DNA of 6,389 nucleotides, from IMG/VR virus record IMGVR_UViG_2706794662_000016. The stretch is one strand, 5' to 3'. Source of the stretch: a virus (Duplodnaviria; Heunggongvirae; Uroviricota; Caudoviricetes). Below, one piece after another: positions 3,132 through 6,389 of this stretch (its first letter is position 1; each line of letters starts with the position of its first letter). A program made the position numbers and the translations under genes. A model generated the notes under the pieces. That model saw only the letters and a list, made by a program, of their open reading frames with translations. It was not told the origin of the DNA and ran no database searches.

Positions 3132-3455
3132 ATGAACGAATATGAATTACAGATTTTCATTGATAGCGACACTGCTATGATGGTGCAGGCTTTCGCTGAT
3201 TCCGGTGTATCAATTGACCTTGATAAATTACTAAAGCTAATGGCTGAAAACTCAGAAGAAATTGAAGACTTTATTCAGGAAATTGAAACTGGTGAACCGC
3301 GTTTTATGTTTCCTGTTACCGACTCAAACATGAAGCGTCTTATTATCGAAGAAACGAACAAATACAGCGTTAGCCCTGAAAAATATCTCAAGGCGGCTAT
3401 AGCAATTTTGTATAGCGATAATATTCTGGTGACGGATTCGAAGGTGGTGCATTAA
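3132..3455 (+). CDS. Hypothetical acidic protein (107 aa from ATG 3132); possible RHH-like C-terminal region
   Basis: SD AAGGAG at 3117-3122, 9 nt before the ATG; the track ORF begins at an upstream TTG (3099) inside repeat B. C-terminal FMFPVTDSNMKRLIIEETNKYSVSPEKYLKAAIAIL fits a strand-helix-helix pattern by eye. Confidence 0.7.
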   Translation: MNEYELQIFIDSDTAMMVQAFADSGVSIDLDKLLKLMAENSEEIEDFIQEIETGEPRFMFPVTDSNMKRLIIEETNKYSVSPEKYLKAAIAILYSDNILVTDSKVVH

Positions 3456-3520
3456 TGGAATTGGTGATTATCTGTTTTGTATTGATTGGTATGATTGCAG
3501 GTGCATCTATTAAAGTATAA
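3455..3520 (+). CDS. Candidate micro-ORF, 21-aa hydrophobic peptide (MELVIICFVLIGMIAGASIKV)
   Basis: ATG overlaps the upstream stop (TAATG at 3453-3457); SD-like AAGGTGG at 3441-3447, 7 nt upstream. Not in the ORF track (below its length cutoff). Confidence 0.3.
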   Translation: MELVIICFVLIGMIAGASIKV

Positions 3521-3544: not shown

Positions 3545-3573
3545 TTGACAAACAACCTTGAGCATGACATAAT
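3545..3573 (+). promoter_or_regulatory. Sigma70-type promoter P2 (TTGACA - 17 nt - TGaCATAAT)
   Basis: Consensus -35 at 3545-3550, 17-nt spacer, extended -10 at 3565-3573. Followed by TGTATATATGG, which also follows P1. Confidence 0.6.
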
Positions 3574-3742
3574 TGTATATATGGGGGAGAGCAATTCTCT
3601 CTTATTTTTTCTTTCAATAATCCGATGGATGGATATTCTGAGTTGGAAAGGTGCAATGCTTTTCGTCCTAGCCTTTCAGGTTGGTCTGAGAGGCTATCTC
3701 AAAAAGTCTTTGTTCATTCATTATTGAATCCTTTACAGCTTT

Positions 3743-3770
3743 GCCCTAATCATGAGTTAGGGCTTTCTTT
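3743..3770 (+). terminator. Candidate intrinsic terminator (GCCCTAA - 7-nt loop - TTAGGGC, then TTTCTTT)
   Basis: Perfect 7-bp stem at 3743-3749 and 3757-3763 followed by a U-rich tract. Confidence 0.5.
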
Positions 3771-3840
3771 AAGAGTTTTTAAACAGAGCTTTTAAAGAAA
3801 GTTTTCCTGAAACTTCGTTAACGTTATAAGCAAACCTCCA

Positions 3841-3875
3841 AAGCCCTTCACAGATTATGTTTAGGGCTTTTCTTA
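3841..3875 (+). terminator. Second, weaker hairpin paralogous to the 3743-3770 hairpin (AAGCCCT ... AGGGCTT then TTCTT)
   Basis: 7-bp stem with a 15-nt loop; shares TTAGGGCTTT(T)CTT with the first hairpin. Confidence 0.3.
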
Positions 3876-3946
3876 ATAGAGCATCTTTAATAAATCGTTA
3901 AGTCATCTTCTAAGTGTATTGGCGTTGAAGGTGCTCTATTAAGAAA
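3869..3946. repeat. 15-bp perfect inverted repeat TTTCTTAATAGAGCA (3869-3883) / TGCTCTATTAAGAAA (3932-3946) with 48-nt spacer, in the leader of the 3971 gene
   Basis: Extended base by base until the first mismatch. A second interleaved inverted repeat, CTAAGTGT (3910-3917) / ACACTTAG (3952-3959), abuts the SD GAGG at 3959-3962. Confidence 0.65.
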
Positions 3947-3970
3947 TAACCACACTTAGAGGAAATTATA

Positions 3971-4681
3971 ATGACAAACGATTTATATATTAACGGTAAA
4001 AAGGTTGATAGCTTCGGAGACTGGTCACCACAGGGTGAACATCCGCTACATACTATTCAGCGTCAAGAGCATGACAAGCGCATTGAGCTTGAGCAAGAGC
4101 TAAAGATGTCACCAAAGGTAATTTCCTTTGTGTCTCCTGAGCCTCAAGAAATGCCTGATATCTGCAAAACTGAAGCACTATTTGAGCTTGAGCGTGAATA
4201 TTACCCAGCTTTAAAATCACAGCGTCTTAGACTTGATGTCGCTTACGATGCTGTTAAGAACTTCGAAGAAACCTCGAAACCTTCAGAATATGATATTGCT
4301 TACGAGATTAAGTCAAACCCGTTTATCTATTATGAAGGAAACTTTAATGATGGTTTTGGTACAGCGATTGAAGACGTTCCTAAAGTTCTTCAAAGTATCC
4401 CTGAAGGGTTCCGGTTAATTGATGTCAGACAAGCATTAAGGGGTTCTGGTCAATTTATTCTGATGACTGATAAAACAGATGAAGAGATTCTTCAGTTAGC
4501 TGAAGCTAATTTGACTAAGCATTATTCCGGTAAACTGGATAAGTTAAAGCAAAAGCTTAAAAAAGAACTTGATACTATGAAAGAACTTGTTAGTGAATAT
4601 GAGTCGCAGAAGAAGATTGCTTTGATGGCTGATATTGAGCAGTTAACGAAGATTTCTCAGAAGTATAGCAAGGCTGTTTGA
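3971..4681 (+). CDS. Hypothetical protein (236 aa)
   Basis: ATG with SD GAGG 8 nt upstream; long ORF. No family recognised. Confidence 0.8.
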   Translation: MTNDLYINGKKVDSFGDWSPQGEHPLHTIQRQEHDKRIELEQELKMSPKVISFVSPEPQEMPDICKTEALFELEREYYPALKSQRLRLDVAYDAVKNFEETSKPSEYDIAYEIKSNPFIYYEGNFNDGFGTAIEDVPKVLQSIPEGFRLIDVRQALRGSGQFILMTDKTDEEILQLAEANLTKHYSGKLDKLKQKLKKELDTMKELVSEYESQKKIALMADIEQLTKISQKYSKAV

Positions 4682-4703: not shown

Positions 4704-4913
4704 ATGTTTGAAGAACGTTTAGAGACTATTCGGTCTGTTTGTGAAAACTTAAAGTTACAAACTAAGCCAGCCTTAAGAATTAAAAACAAACGTCAAGTTA
4801 TCACCTCACACAAACCAAAAACACGCAAGATTCCAAAGTGGTGTATTGACCGTATTCCTTCTGATGCTCAAATCATAGGTGAAACGGAATTACATTATCT
4901 TGTCCGACATTAA
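4704..4913 (+). CDS. Hypothetical small basic protein (69 aa)
   Basis: SD AGAGGTG immediately upstream of the ATG; followed by a terminator. Confidence 0.65.
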   Translation: MFEERLETIRSVCENLKLQTKPALRIKNKRQVITSHKPKTRKIPKWCIDRIPSDAQIIGETELHYLVRH

Positions 4914-4979: not shown

Positions 4980-5069
4980 GTATGTGTGCTACGTGAAATC
5001 TGTAAAGCTAATACCCACACTGAAAAATAGAATTTACGTACAACACGCTTAAAGAGGTGAAAAATATGA

Positions 5070-6347
5070 ATGGCACAATTTAAAGTTGATGATTTTCTGA
5101 TTGAGTTAAGTTTTAACTCTCAGAAAGTTTTAAAAGGCTTGGAAAAAGCCGAGAAACAAACGATGCAGGTAGCATCACGAATTGAGAAGCGATTGAATAA
5201 GTCGTTTAGAGTTAATCCTACGCCTTTAAATGATTCTCTCAAACTAATGGAAAGAAATGTCGATAAAACTGTTTCCAAGATTGAGCAGCGTCTTAAAAAC
5301 ACTAGAGCGTTTAAGATTAAAACTGAAATTGAGGATACTTTAAAGCCACTTAGACAACCAAGACAGCCACGAATTAGCGGAAGCAGAGCAATCACAGCAG
5401 CTTACTCAGCGAATATGAGCAAGCTTCGTGACTTTAATCCTATGCTTGAGAAGTATTTTAAAAGCCAGTATTACAGCTTAAGCAGTAAATCCAAGACACT
5501 TGGAAACGAAACTTTTAATCGTGAGTTAGCAAAGTTAAATCAGTCTCTTCGTGAAACACTTTCTAAGTTTAACAAGACCACCAGCAAAAATAATCACAGT
5601 GAAAATGCTTCAAATAGTCTGGATGTATTAGCTACGAGTGCAATCAAAGCAGGTACAGCCATTTATAGTTTTCAGACAGCCTTAGAAGCTTACAGGCGGA
5701 TTATGGAGGTTGGTCTGAAAAAAGAAGCATCACAACGAGCGGCACAATTCGTTTTAGGTGATGAAGGTGCTAAACGAGCTACAGAATTTGTTAAGAATCT
5801 TGCTGATAGTAGTGGTGTAGACCAGATTGAAACATTAAGCAGTTTTGCTAAGTTTTCCGCTGGTGCTGGTGATATGAATGCAGACCAGAAAGAATCCTTA
5901 TTTTCTAATGTGATTGGTACATCCAGATTAATGGGGCTAAGCACCGATGAAATTAACGGGATTTTAAAAGCTTTCGAGCAGATGGCATCTAAAGGAAAGA
6001 TTCAGGCTGAAGAGCTACGCGGTCAATTAGGTGACAGAATGGCAGGTGCTTTTCAGTTATTTGCCAGAAGTCTTGGGATGACTACGGAAGAATTAGACAA
6101 GGCCATGAAAGACGGTAAGATTCTTTCTAAAGATGTTCTTCCTAAAGTATCCGCTGAAATGGGAAGGATGATTGATAAAGCTGGTGGATGGGAAAAGATT
6201 ATTAACTCTACTCAGACGCAGTTAGGCCGCTTAAGTAATTCATGGAATAATAATCTGGCCTTAATGTTCGATGGTTCACAGGAAGGTTTAACAGACTTTA
6301 CAAGGTCACTGACTAATTTACTTAATTCACTAAATAGCTGCGCTTAA
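5070..6347 (+). CDS. Tape-measure-domain protein (425 aa), lambda gpH-like N-terminal region; possibly a truncated remnant
   Basis: SD AAAGAGGTG 10 nt upstream. The motif EELRGQLGDRMAGAFQLFARSLGMTTEELDKAMKDGKILSKDVLP matches the conserved phage tape-measure core as I recall it, and the N-terminus MAQFKVDDFLIELSF resembles lambda gpH MAEPVGDLVVDLSL. Domain assignment is from memory. Confidence 0.8.
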   Translation: MAQFKVDDFLIELSFNSQKVLKGLEKAEKQTMQVASRIEKRLNKSFRVNPTPLNDSLKLMERNVDKTVSKIEQRLKNTRAFKIKTEIEDTLKPLRQPRQPRISGSRAITAAYSANMSKLRDFNPMLEKYFKSQYYSLSSKSKTLGNETFNRELAKLNQSLRETLSKFNKTTSKNNHSENASNSLDVLATSAIKAGTAIYSFQTALEAYRRIMEVGLKKEASQRAAQFVLGDEGAKRATEFVKNLADSSGVDQIETLSSFAKFSAGAGDMNADQKESLFSNVIGTSRLMGLSTDEINGILKAFEQMASKGKIQAEELRGQLGDRMAGAFQLFARSLGMTTEELDKAMKDGKILSKDVLPKVSAEMGRMIDKAGGWEKIINSTQTQLGRLSNSWNNNLALMFDGSQEGLTDFTRSLTNLLNSLNSCA

Positions 6348-6389
6348 TACCGCTACACTTTTGCCAGCCCATGTTTGCCTCCGGGGAAT

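What the first reader, a model, noticed from the sequence alone, without database searches (positions are those of the whole stretch)
3869..3962. 15-bp perfect inverted repeat and an interleaved second helix overlapping the ribosome-binding site of gene 3971
Helix 1 (3869-3883 with 3932-3946, 15 bp perfect) and helix 2 (3910-3917 with 3952-3959) are mutually exclusive because their arms interleave. The 3' arm of helix 2 ends on the first base of the SD GAGG at 3959-3962. This geometry fits a translational switch or thermosensor; alternatively the long perfect repeat is a protein-binding palindrome.
Basis: seen in the sequence. Interest (0 to 1): 0.5.

Follow-up and report, generated by a model that had tools for sequence, protein, structure and literature searches.

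The report
Conserved RBS-masking hairpin in mRNA leader
The two helices are real, conserved RNA structures just upstream of the first gene of a tail-gene operon in a common, uncharacterised E. coli/Shigella island: a long hairpin carries in its loop a sequence that can pair with and hide the ribosome-binding site, which most likely controls translation, though what triggers it is unknown.

Summary
The 15-bp perfect repeat is the longest in the window (60 shuffles reach at most 12). As RNA it is a continuous 22-bp helix (H1). Helix 2 (H2) extends to 12 bp and covers the whole GAGG.

About 100 related loci carry three leader types (A, B, C) with very different sequence but the same layout:
- a terminator-like hairpin;
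- an H1 of 21-27 bp that starts in that hairpin's U-tract;
- a 34-nt apical region containing an anti-Shine-Dalgarno;
- a variable spacer, then the SD.

H1 has 9-12 pairs with compensatory changes. Its G-U pairs fit only the + strand. The anti-SD co-varies with the SD.

I read this as a cis-acting RNA element in the mRNA leader that gates translation of gene 3971 by masking the ribosome-binding site. H1 acts as scaffold or gate and is probably also an RNase III substrate.

- "Mutually exclusive because interleaved" does not follow, because the arm order is a pseudoknot topology.
- A thermosensor is unlikely.
- A protein-binding DNA palindrome is unlikely.

The trigger, and whether the element acts in cis or in trans, remain untested. 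There is no Rfam match. I rate it a new variant of a known kind, of moderate interest.

The parts
3545..3573 (+). Sigma-70-type promoter-like site (TTGACA, 17 nt, TG-n-CATAAT; 11 of 12). It is the probable origin of the roughly 390-nt leader transcript.
   Evidence: The block AAAAGCTGTTGACAAAnAACC...CATGAcATaAT is nearly invariant in 64 distinct homologous loci and is present in the E. albertii and O157:H7 loci. Promoter function is inferred, not shown.
3581..3605 (+). Hairpin A at the 5' end of the predicted transcript.
   Evidence: The stem changes sequence but stays complementary in E. albertii loci (GGGGAGTAATTTCCC). There it is not followed by a T-run, so it is more likely a 5' stem-loop than a terminator.
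3670..3695 (+). Hairpin B, preceded by the conserved motif GGTGCAATGCTTTTCG.
   Evidence: RNAalifold consensus of 64 sequences. The stem is replaced by a different complementary stem in the O157:H7 locus.
3743..3770 (+). Intrinsic-terminator-like hairpin C plus T-run.
   Evidence: 8 pairs, 4 G-C, loop 5, TTTCTTT. It lies just after a mosaic breakpoint at about 3735.
3763..3801 (+). Hairpin D. Its 5' arm starts in the U-tract of terminator C. C plus D is a shorter duplicate of the unit 'hairpin E + helix 1'.
   Evidence: inverted repeat I3 (13 nt, 92%) and direct repeat D1 (3757-3775 / 3861-3879, 84%). Absent from type C leaders.
3840..3874 (+). Hairpin E (stem 3840-3847/3863-3870, AAAGCCCT/AGGGCTTT) with a U-tract. 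It is terminator-like and directly abuts helix 1.
   Evidence: The stem and U-tract are present in all three leader types. The loop varies from 13 to about 45 nt and is inverted in L056. In type C it is a canonical terminator, GCCCTCttgaatGAGGGCGTTTTTT.
3869..3890 (+). Helix 1, 5' arm (perfect core 3869-3883). It begins in the U-tract of hairpin E.
3925..3946 (+). Helix 1, 3' arm (perfect core 3932-3946).
   Evidence: 22 pairs including 2 G-U. On 61 distinct leaders, 98.3% of cells are paired and 9 of 21 pairs changed on both sides. RNAalifold predicts this helix independently, with 12 compensatory pairs.
3906..3917 (+). Anti-Shine-Dalgarno (helix 2, 5' arm) in the 34-nt apical region of helix 1.
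   Evidence: The core TCTTCTAAG is invariant in types A and B. In type C it is replaced by TTCACCTC, matching that type's SD GAGGTGAA.
3952..3963 (+). Helix 2, 3' arm, containing the SD GAGG (3959-3962).
   Evidence: 98.2% of cells paired; the target sequence is unique in the window.
3890..3899 (+). Second segment of the apical region, perfectly complementary to codons 3-6 (3977-3986). Specific to type A.
   Evidence: I7, 10 nt, 100%; across the whole 390-nt leader, the best duplex with the initiation region is this apical region, and it is kept through a G-U pair in L017.
3971..4681 (+). Regulated gene, a 236-aa protein of unknown function and first gene of the tail-module operon (followed by a 69-aa ORF at 4704-4913 and tape measure at 5070-).
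   Evidence: No Pfam, PHROG or NCBIfam family. No promoter-like or terminator-like site between 4600 and 5120. Neighbours are TMP_3 and Dit_like.

Best explanation
The region 3869-3963 is part of the 5' leader RNA of the + strand mRNA for gene 3971.

Helix 1 is a long hairpin (22 bp here, 21-27 bp in relatives). It sits immediately after a terminator-like hairpin and uses that hairpin's U-tract as the foot of its 5' arm. Its 34-nt apical region carries an anti-Shine-Dalgarno sequence. This sequence can pair with the ribosome-binding site 5-20 nt downstream of the hairpin (helix 2), and in this leader type also with codons 3-6.

Pairing of the apical region with the RBS blocks 30S binding and keeps gene 3971 untranslated. 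By inference, the untranslated mRNA would expose the downstream tail genes to Rho-dependent polarity.

Helix 1 is the gate or scaffold. It holds the anti-SD next to the RBS. Depending on whether its upper part is formed, it either constrains the anti-SD (RBS open) or lets it reach the RBS as a pseudoknot on the 15-bp core (RBS masked).

Helix 1 is also an uninterrupted A-U-rich duplex of two helical turns, so it is very probably cut by RNase III in E. coli. Cleavage would detach the anti-SD from the mRNA. I consider RNase III processing the most likely way the block is relieved or reset.

Shown: the helices exist, are conserved and covary; the strand is +; the SD is the target. Inferred: repression of translation, pseudoknot feasibility, RNase III cleavage, the direction of the effect, and polarity.
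For: (1) Existence beyond chance.

(2) Three leader types were found in about 100 loci encoding relatives of the downstream protein (52-92% identical). All share the same architecture, and the apical region measures 34 nt in the five representative leaders measured.
- Type A: TTTCTTAATAGAGCA.../...TGCTCTATTAAGAAA
- Type B: TTCAGYTTTTAAAAAGCATACTTGGCA/TGTCAGGTGTGCTTTTTAAAAACTGAA
- Type C: TTTTTTAAAGCACCTTTGGCA/TGCTGAGGGTGCTTTAAAAAA

(3) Covariation. 98.3% of helix-1 cells are paired, and 9 pairs changed on both sides, against 42-57% paired when partners are slid. An unbiased RNAalifold run recovers helix 1. Within type C, one-sided changes pass through G-U (L095, L096).

(4) Strand. G-U pairs occur only on the + strand, and the + strand hairpin is more stable (-33.2 vs -17.5 kcal/mol in this window).

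(5) Helix 2.
- The 10-bp core is 98.2% paired.
- Types A and B extend it at opposite ends (GTGT/ACAC versus CC/GG).
- Type C swaps both partners together (TTCACCTC/GAGGTGAA).
- Across the whole 390-nt leader, the best partner of the initiation region is the apical part of helix 1.

(6) Energetics. With the helix-1 5' arm removed, the SD is 99.9% paired. With everything upstream of 3936 removed, it is about 50% free. The helix-1 core alone is -15.3 kcal/mol and the extended helix 2 is -27.9. Together these compare with -33.2 for the complete hairpin, so the masked and open states are of comparable stability before an unknown pseudoknot penalty.

(7) RNase III. The idealised E. coli substrate is 22 bp, two A-helical turns (PMC3867540). 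Helix 1 is 22, 27 and 21 bp in the three types.

(8) Operon context. No promoter-like or terminator-like site separates gene 3971 from the tape measure gene.
Against: - No expression, probing or processing data exist for this locus. Everything functional is inferred.
- Nested thermodynamic folding puts types A and B firmly in the helix-1 state with the SD open (-37.5 vs -29.7, -45.3 vs -25.7). Masking in cis therefore needs a pseudoknot or partial melting, and ViennaRNA cannot score either. My geometry and energy estimate for the pseudoknot is crude.
- The spacer between helix 1 and the RBS varies from about 3 to 22 nt and carries (AC)n indels. This does not suggest a tightly packed pseudoknot.
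- The covariation comes from essentially three lineages. Many changed positions trace back to only two or three splits.
- The anti-SD core is identical in types A and B, so independent support for helix 2 rests on type C, where p is about 0.02 by loop shuffling.
- RNase III antideterminants could not be evaluated. RNase III cleavage can also destabilise an mRNA rather than activate it.
Confidence: 0.55

Rival explanations
1. A true two-state switch. Helix 1 and helix 2 exclude each other. Helix 1 formed means RBS open and translation ON. Helix 2 forms only on RNAs that lack or cannot use the helix-1 5' arm, for example transcripts starting or cut inside the hairpin, or with the arm held by another partner, and these are silenced. 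This would resemble fold-back inhibition.
For: - Nested folding favours helix 1 with a free SD in types A and B. In type C the two states are nearly equal (-24.8 vs -26.6).
- Removing the 5' arm masks the SD completely.
- With the full 22-bp helix plus the inner apical helix, the 5-nt spacer is too short for helix 2 to form (my geometric inference).
- Spacer length is unconstrained.
Against: - No conserved alternative partner was found for the helix-1 5' arm. The CCTCC at 3835-3839 that pairs with the SD in the MFE is polymorphic (CCTTC) in many relatives.
- No promoter-like site was found inside the hairpin.
- In types A and B the energy gap (8-20 kcal/mol) is too large for an equilibrium switch.
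- Interleaving alone does not imply exclusion.
Confidence: 0.17
2. A co-transcribed antisense (immunity-type) RNA. The helix-1 hairpin is excised from the leader and acts in trans as well as in cis. Its loop pairs with the RBS of gene 3971 on other transcripts or other copies of the island. This would work like the C4 RNA of phages P1 and P7, which is made from the same transcript as its target icd/ant and blocks the icd RBS (the C4 mechanism is from my own knowledge of that literature).
For: - The very stable stem presents a largely single-stranded complementary loop.
- The spacer length is irrelevant to a trans model.
- Loop and target change together between types A/B and C, like an immunity specificity.
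- Some genomes carry 2-3 copies of the element.
- In the type C island the loop UUCACCUC is complementary to the identical extended SD GAGGTGAA of three tail genes (L093 at 5989, 7066, 9226).
Against: - No Rfam hit to C4 (RF01695) or to any family at E <= 1.
- There is no terminator or defined 3' end after helix 1, so release would need processing, and no processing data exist for this locus.
- In types A and B the target occurs only once per island.
- GAGGTGAA is simply the consensus extended SD, so its recurrence may reflect strong RBSs rather than targeting.
Confidence: 0.12
3. Helix 1 is only an RNase III processing or stability determinant of the long leader, as in the rnc and pnp leaders or the T7 inter-cistronic sites. 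The loop-RBS complementarity would have no regulatory role.
For: The helix length is conserved at 21-27 bp, which matches the 22-bp ideal substrate. Helix-1 covariation is much stronger than that of helix 2.
Against: - Loop-RBS complementarity is significant in each type.
- It is extended differently in types A and B, and swapped as a pair in type C.
- The invariant TCTTCTAAG in an otherwise variable loop needs an explanation.
Confidence: 0.1
4. A DNA-level element: a palindrome bound by a protein, a cruciform, a recombination or packaging site, or complementarity maintained by template-switch homogenisation of the arms.
For: - The 15-bp core is perfect at the DNA level.
- A mosaic breakpoint lies at 3855-3871, at the foot of the repeat.
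- Hairpin E is inverted in one locus, which shows DNA-level palindrome dynamics nearby.
Against: - The arms are 34-48 bp apart.
- Types B and C keep 3 G-U positions per hairpin that would be mismatches in DNA and on the - strand.
- The arm sequences are not conserved while pairing is.
- The large serine recombinase gene lies at the far end of the island in the related loci, so an attachment-site role for this mid-island repeat is unlikely (my inference).
Confidence: 0.04
5. An RNA thermometer, in which helix 2 melts at host temperature and frees the SD.
For: Only the geometry of an SD paired to an upstream sequence.
Against: - Helix 2 has 12 perfect pairs or more, at -15 to -28 kcal/mol.
- The computed SD accessibility is 0.001-0.002 from 25 to 50 C when helix 2 can form.
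- There is no ROSE or FourU match.
- Known thermometers use short, imperfect helices (established knowledge).
Confidence: 0.02

Closest known systems
IS200 tnpA left end: a terminator hairpin followed by a long inverted repeat in the 5' UTR that sequesters the SD (PMC4513863)
   Same: - Two successive inverted repeats upstream of the gene.
- The first is a Rho-independent terminator that stops incoming transcription.
- The second is a roughly 70-nt stem-loop that occludes the SD and blocks 30S binding.
- The 5' UTR is also processed into a small RNA (PMC5435999, abstract listed).
   Different: - In IS200 the SD lies inside the lower stem of the hairpin (nested). Here the SD lies outside the hairpin and pairs with its loop (interleaved).
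- There is no sequence or Rfam similarity.
- No antisense promoter is conserved here. The minus-strand promoter-like site at 3993-3965 lies in a hypervariable spacer.
C4 antisense RNA / icd-ant of phages P1 and P7 (Rfam RF01695), and the related CI RNA of satellite P4
   Same: - A structured RNA encoded upstream of its target on the same transcript.
- Its loops are complementary to the RBS of the first downstream gene.
- Translational block of that gene silences the operon.
- Loop and target covary between heteroimmune relatives.

The mechanism is recalled from the literature. Family presence in Rfam is confirmed in PMC2864571.
   Different: - No match to RF01695.
- One complementary loop here rather than two.
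- Release by processing, and action in trans, are untested here.
RNase III-controlled phage and host leaders: lambda N leader, T7 early sites, rnc and pnp leaders
   Same: A duplex of two helical turns in a leader immediately upstream of an RBS. Cleavage there changes RBS accessibility or mRNA stability. The substrate rule is from PMC3867540; the individual systems are from my own knowledge.
   Different: - Cleavage here is only inferred from helix length and composition.
- In lambda N the RBS region is itself part of the RNase III hairpin.
SD-sequestering H-type pseudoknots (SAM-II and preQ1-II riboswitches, rpsO leader) and the timP 5' UTR structural switch (PMC13000454)
   Same: The arm order is hairpin, loop, then 3' tail containing the SD. 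Alternative long-range pairings decide whether the SD is accessible.
   Different: - Those have short stems (5-8 bp) and conserved ligand- or protein-binding cores.
- Here the stem is 21-27 bp, and loop sequences outside the anti-SD are not conserved between types.
- No Rfam match.

Membership tests
RNA thermometer (ROSE, FourU) | Match to the family model | tested here: not met
   No Rfam hit at E <= 1 anywhere in the window.
RNA thermometer (ROSE, FourU) | SD paired in a short, imperfect helix that melts between about 30 and 42 C | tested here: not met
   Helix 2 has 12 pairs with no mismatch (-15.3 kcal/mol), or -27.9 kcal/mol in its extended form. The computed P(unpaired) of GAGG is 0.001-0.002 from 25 to 50 C when helix 2 can form. 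This is computed, not measured.
C4 antisense RNA (RF01695) | Sequence and structure match to the covariance model | tested here: not met
   No hit at E <= 1.
C4 antisense RNA (RF01695) | Encoded upstream of, and co-transcribed with, a target whose RBS is complementary to its loop | tested here: met
   The loop 3906-3917 is complementary to 3952-3963 on the same strand, 35 nt downstream, in all three leader types. Co-transcription is inferred from the absence of an intervening promoter.
C4 antisense RNA (RF01695) | Excision as a stable small RNA (by RNase P) and action in trans | not testable with these tools
   Needs a Northern blot or RNA-seq and a trans-complementation test.
E. coli RNase III substrate | Uninterrupted dsRNA of about two A-helical turns (22 bp ideal) | tested here: met
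   22 bp in type A, 27 bp with one A-C in some type B variants, and 21 bp in type C. The rule is from PMC3867540.
E. coli RNase III substrate | No antideterminant base pairs in the proximal and distal boxes; cleavage observed | not tested
   The cleavage site is unknown, so the box positions cannot be assigned. This needs in-vitro cleavage or a comparison of rnc+ and rnc- strains.
Intrinsic terminator or attenuator formed by helix 1 | G+C-rich stem followed directly by a U-tract | tested here: not met
   Helix 1 is followed by TAACCACAC, with no T-run, and is not called by the scan. The upstream hairpin E does have the U-tract.
Ligand-binding pseudoknot riboswitch (SAM-II, preQ1-II and similar) | Family model match and a conserved ligand-binding core | tested here: not met
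   No Rfam hit. Outside the anti-SD and the central AGCA/TGCT, the stem and loop sequences differ between types A, B and C.
Protein-binding DNA palindrome (operator) | Closely spaced symmetric half-sites that are identical at the DNA level and strand-neutral | tested here: not met
   The arms are 34-48 bp apart. There are 2-3 G:T positions per hairpin and 0-1 A:C. The + strand fold is more stable than the - strand fold.

The most novel reading that the evidence does not exclude
The hairpin is the core of an RNA-based immunity or timing switch of a previously undescribed satellite-like island that encodes only tail parts (tape measure, a Dit-like protein). A constitutive promoter would make a terminated leader RNA. 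Read-through transcripts would stay translationally locked by the loop-RBS pairing until a helper-phage or host signal (RNase III, an antiterminator or an RNA-binding protein) releases it. The excised hairpin would act in trans, with type-specific (A/B versus C) immunity, as C4 does in P1 and P7.
Probability: 0.15. Interest if true: 0.7.

Novelty: new variant of a known kind. Interest (0 to 1): 0.45.

Why it matters
RBS masking by leader structure is a well-known principle, so the class is not new. This version is unusual in three ways, and it is not in Rfam:
- the anti-SD sits in the apex of a two-turn, RNase III-sized hairpin;
- the hairpin is fused to the U-tract of a terminator;
- the layout is kept across three sequence-unrelated versions.

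The element guards the first gene of a tape-measure/Dit operon in an island found in about 9% of complete E. coli genomes (477 of 5426), including O157:H7 and Shigella. That island has no match in the phage collections and no described biology.

If the element really gates that operon, it offers a handle on when and how the island expresses its tail genes. It would also be a compact natural example of a terminator coupled to a translational lock. Testing it needs only reporter fusions and an rnc mutant.

Tried and rejected
- **Rfam scan** of the whole window at E <= 1: no hit.
- **Leader peptide across the helix-1 5' arm.** An ATG at 3857 in the loop of hairpin E opens a 14-codon ORF ending at 3901. 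The ATG is missing in several relatives (ACG; ATCTAGGGC), the frame and length vary, and most have no SD. Rejected.
- **Second anti-SD, CCTCC at 3835-3839.** It pairs with the SD in the MFE of this window but is polymorphic (CCTTC) in many relatives. Rejected as conserved.
- **Antisense promoter-like site** on the minus strand (3993 to 3965, 10 of 12). Its -10 lies in the hypervariable SD-ATG spacer. Rejected.
- **Additional targets or decoys of the anti-SD** in the window: none.
- **DNA and protein searches of the phage and plasmid collections** for the leader and the 236-aa protein: no match.
- **Function of the 236-aa protein.**
  - No Pfam, PHROG or NCBIfam family.
  - AlphaFold2 model of moderate confidence (pLDDT 74.8, long C-terminal helix).
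  - No significant match to viral structures (best E = 0.06).
  - The public name 'transposase' has no support.
- **Literature searches** for a tail-encoding E. coli satellite: nothing relevant.
- **Genome-contig scan with a single protein query** returned only one locus. The metagenome scan with an alignment query supplied most of the diversity.
Full report

Yes. The arms 3869-3883 and 3932-3946 are perfectly complementary over 15 bp. This is the longest perfect inverted repeat with a loop of 100 nt or less in the window. Sixty dinucleotide-preserving shuffles of the window gave maxima of 9-12 bp.

The repeat finder extends the helix to 22 nt at 91% (3869-3890/3925-3946). Both non-complementary positions are T:G, so as + strand RNA helix 1 (H1) is 22 continuous pairs.

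Helix 2 (H2) as reported (3910-3917/3952-3959) is correct but under-called. With one G-U pair it is 12 bp (3906-3917/3952-3963, -15.3 kcal/mol) and covers all of GAGG at 3959-3962. In this window the complementarity continues: 3890-3899 is perfectly complementary to codons 3-6 (3977-3986). The whole apical part of H1 can therefore pair with the initiation region from -19 to +16, at -27.9 kcal/mol. Across the entire 390-nt leader, this apical region is the best possible partner of the initiation region.

The RNA folds much better than shuffles: z = -7.0 for 3835-3985 and z = -8.1 for 3575-3985.

**2. Context**

The window is part of an island of about 12 kb in E. coli, Shigella and E. albertii chromosomes. 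Fragments of IS2 and IS911 occupy 1-188. The gene content in related loci is:
- a small resolvase/HTH protein, an HTH protein and an HNH endonuclease;
- a 118-aa ORF;
- a non-coding stretch of about 515 nt;
- the 236-aa gene at 3971;
- a 69-aa ORF;
- a tape measure protein (TMP_3);
- a Dit-like 'baseplate' protein;
- a large serine recombinase.

The island is inserted next to tonB or inside yecE. It is found in 477 of 5426 complete E. coli genomes and never on plasmids. O157:H7 carries it. Neither the leader nor the 236-aa protein matches anything in the phage collection. The protein has no Pfam, PHROG or NCBIfam family. Its public name 'transposase' is unsupported.

The non-coding stretch is a chain of structures:
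- a strong promoter-like site at 3545-3573 (11 of 12, with TG), nearly invariant in 64 distinct loci;
- a 5' hairpin A (3581-3605);
- hairpin B (3670-3695);
- terminator-like hairpin C (3743-3763 plus T-run);
- hairpin D (3763-3801);
- hairpin E (3840-3870 plus U-tract);
- then H1, H2 and the start codon.

No promoter-like or terminator-like site lies between gene 3971 and the tape measure gene. Gene 3971 is therefore probably the first cistron of the tail operon.

**3. Comparative evidence**

I collected about 100 loci encoding relatives of the 236-aa protein at 52-92% identity. They came from metagenomes, viral contigs, E. coli genomes and E. albertii assemblies. The 125 nt before the start codon fall into three types:
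- Type A (this window).
- Type B (for example O157:H7): H1 = TTCAGYTTTTAAAAAGCATACTTGGCA / TGTCAGGTGTGCTTTTTAAAAACTGAA, and H2 = CCTCTTCTAAGT / ACTTAGAAGAGG.
- Type C (E. albertii): H1 = TTTTTTAAAGCACCTTTGGCA / TGCTGAGGGTGCTTTAAAAAA, and H2 = TTCACCTC(GT) / (GT)GAGGTGAA.

Leader type is uncoupled from the divergence of the protein. Types A and B both occur with proteins 56-92% identical to the query. The intergenic region is mosaic, with breakpoints near 3735 and 3855-3871.

All types share the same layout:
- a terminator-like hairpin;
- an H1 that begins in its U-tract;
- a 34-nt apical region holding the anti-SD (in the five representative leaders measured);
- the H1 3' arm;
- a spacer of about 3-22 nt;
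- the SD.

On an alignment of 61 distinct leaders (A2), the named structure gives 98.2% standard pairs, against 42-57% when the partners are slid by 1-3 columns. For H1, 9 of 21 pairs changed on both sides and 98.3% of cells are paired. The 10-bp core of H2 is 98.2% paired but nearly invariant between types A and B. RNAalifold, run without my structure, recovers H1 with 12 compensatory pairs.

Support for H2 comes from four observations:
- Its core TCTTCTAAG is invariant in an otherwise variable loop.
- Types A and B lengthen the helix at opposite ends (GTGT:ACAC versus CC:GG).
- Type C replaces both partners together.
- Loop shuffles rarely reach the observed loop-RBS duplex energy: 1 of 2000 for type A, 0 and 3 of 2000 for type B, and 36-40 of 2000 for type C.

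A caveat applies. The many covarying cells trace back to only three lineages, so the number of independent events is small.

**4. RNA or DNA, and which strand?**

The non-Watson-Crick positions in H1 are G-U on the + strand (2-3 per hairpin). A-C, which would be G-U on the - strand, occurs 0-1 times. Within type C, single substitutions pass through G-U. The + strand hairpin is more stable than the - strand one:
- type A: -33.2 vs -17.5 kcal/mol;
- type B: -33.6 vs -25.8 and -40.7 vs -26.7;
- type C: -24.9 vs -22.1.

The arms are 34-48 bp apart. These points argue for a + strand RNA structure. They argue against a protein-binding palindrome, and against complementarity kept merely by DNA-level homogenisation of the arms.

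**5. How it most likely works**

The anti-SD masks the RBS. If the 5' arm of H1 is removed in silico, the SD is 99.9% paired from 25 to 50 C. If everything upstream of 3936 is removed, it is about half free.

The open question is how H1 and H2 relate.

Pseudoknot-free folding favours H1 with an open SD in types A and B: -37.5 vs -29.7, -34.8 vs -30.1, and -45.3 vs -25.7 kcal/mol. The two states are about equal in type C, at -24.8 vs -26.6.

With the complete 22-bp H1 plus its inner apical helix, the 5-nt spacer cannot reach the loop; this is my geometric inference. With only the 15-bp perfect core formed, the linkers (5, 6 and 14 nt) are long enough. The sum of core (-15.3) and extended H2 (-27.9) is then comparable to the full hairpin (-33.2), before an unknown pseudoknot penalty. 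A masked pseudoknotted state and an open hairpin state of similar stability are therefore plausible. This is an estimate, not a computation with a pseudoknot model.

H1 is an uninterrupted, A-U-rich duplex of 21-27 bp in all three types. The idealised E. coli RNase III substrate is 22 bp, two helical turns (PMC3867540). I therefore expect RNase III to cut H1 in vivo, which would sever the anti-SD from the mRNA. Whether this activates translation (as in the lambda N leader) or destabilises the mRNA (as in the rnc and pnp leaders) cannot be decided here; both examples are from my own knowledge.

An untranslated first cistron would also expose the operon to Rho-dependent polarity. This is an inference from established knowledge.

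**6. Rivals**

- A strict two-state switch, which needs a trigger that frees or removes the H1 5' arm. None was found. The CCTCC at 3835-3839 is polymorphic, there is no internal promoter, and no conserved leader peptide.
- A C4-like co-transcribed antisense RNA acting in trans.
  - It is attractive because the spacer length is unconstrained, and because loop and target swap together in type C.
  - In the type C island the loop also matches the identical extended SD GAGGTGAA of three tail genes.
  - Against it, there is no Rfam C4 match and no evidence of excision.
- RNase III or stability site only.
- DNA palindrome.
- Thermometer, which the stability of H2 makes unlikely.

**7. Comparison with known systems**

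The closest in layout is the IS200 left end. It has a terminator hairpin followed by a roughly 70-nt inverted repeat that sequesters the tnpA SD (PMC4513863). There, however, the SD is nested inside the stem. The closest in logic are P1/P7 c4-icd, RNase III-controlled leaders, and SD-sequestering pseudoknots or structural switches such as timP (PMC13000454). None is a family match. The membership table lists the features that were tested and not met.

**8. Verdict**

The general interpretation, RNA-level control of the RBS of gene 3971, is supported. The specific arguments (exclusion by interleaving, thermosensor, protein palindrome) are not. It is a new variant of a known kind of element. Interest is moderate (0.45), raised somewhat by the uncharacterised, widespread tail-gene island it controls.

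Noticed in passing
whole window; L001-L003, L093, L099: The window belongs to an island of about 12 kb. It encodes a tape measure protein (TMP_3), a Dit-like distal tail protein, a large serine recombinase, a small resolvase/HTH protein and an HNH endonuclease, but no capsid or terminase genes. It is present in 477 of 5426 complete E. coli genomes, including O157:H7, and is inserted next to tonB or inside yecE. The leader and the 236-aa protein have no match in the phage collection, and I found no description in the literature. It may be an undescribed satellite-like or tail-module element.
   Followed up: partly
3455-3520 (+): An unannotated 21-codon ORF encodes a hydrophobic peptide (MELVIICFVLIGMIAGASIKV). 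Its ATG overlaps the stop codon of the 118-aa gene (TAATG). Similar small hydrophobic ORFs sit at the same place in the E. albertii and O157:H7 loci.
   Followed up: partly
3545-3740 (+): The most widespread and best-conserved module of the intergenic region is non-coding. It holds a near-consensus extended -10 promoter followed by TATAT(G)GGGG, a 5' hairpin, the motif GGTGCAATGCTTTTCG and hairpin B. With up to three terminator-like hairpins downstream, it resembles a late-promoter/terminated-leader arrangement that would need antitermination or read-through. It could also yield a small RNA ending at hairpin C or E.
   Followed up: partly
3743-3801 versus 3840-3946: The unit 'terminator C + hairpin D' is a shorter duplicate of 'hairpin E + helix 1' (direct repeat 3757-3775 / 3861-3879, 84%). 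In both units a hairpin starts in the U-tract of the preceding terminator. The C+D unit is absent from type C leaders and from many type B leaders.
   Followed up: partly
3848-3862; L056: The loop of hairpin E is hypervariable, 13 to about 45 nt with different insertions. In locus L056 the loop is inverted while the stem is kept.
   Followed up: no
3947-3970: Two hypervariable micro-regions flank the conserved SD. One is an (AC)n-type length variation just 5' of helix 2's 3' arm (CCAC, CCACAC, CCACACAC). The other is an A/T-rich SD-to-ATG spacer that differs in length and sequence between otherwise near-identical leaders. This may be tuning of translation or a recombination junction.
   Followed up: no
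5054-5061 (+); L093 at 5989, 7066, 9226: The extended SD GAGGTGAA precedes the tape measure gene in all island types. In the E. albertii (type C) island the same 8-mer precedes three tail-operon genes. It is exactly complementary to the type C loop UUCACCUC, which resembles the 3' tail of 16S rRNA.
   Followed up: partly
3971-4681 (+): Public records name the 236-aa protein 'transposase', but it matches no Pfam, PHROG or NCBIfam family. The AlphaFold2 model (pLDDT 74.8) shows a small alpha/beta core and a C-terminal helix of about 65 residues. There was no significant structural match in BFVD.
   Followed up: partly
1-188 and 6330-6385: The 5' end of the window carries fragments of IS2 (1-61) and IS911/IS3-family (58-188) sequence. 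The last 56 nt, inside the tape measure gene, are 96-98% identical to unannotated stretches of lambdoid phages (ev099, mEp332, PhiR70_1).
   Followed up: no
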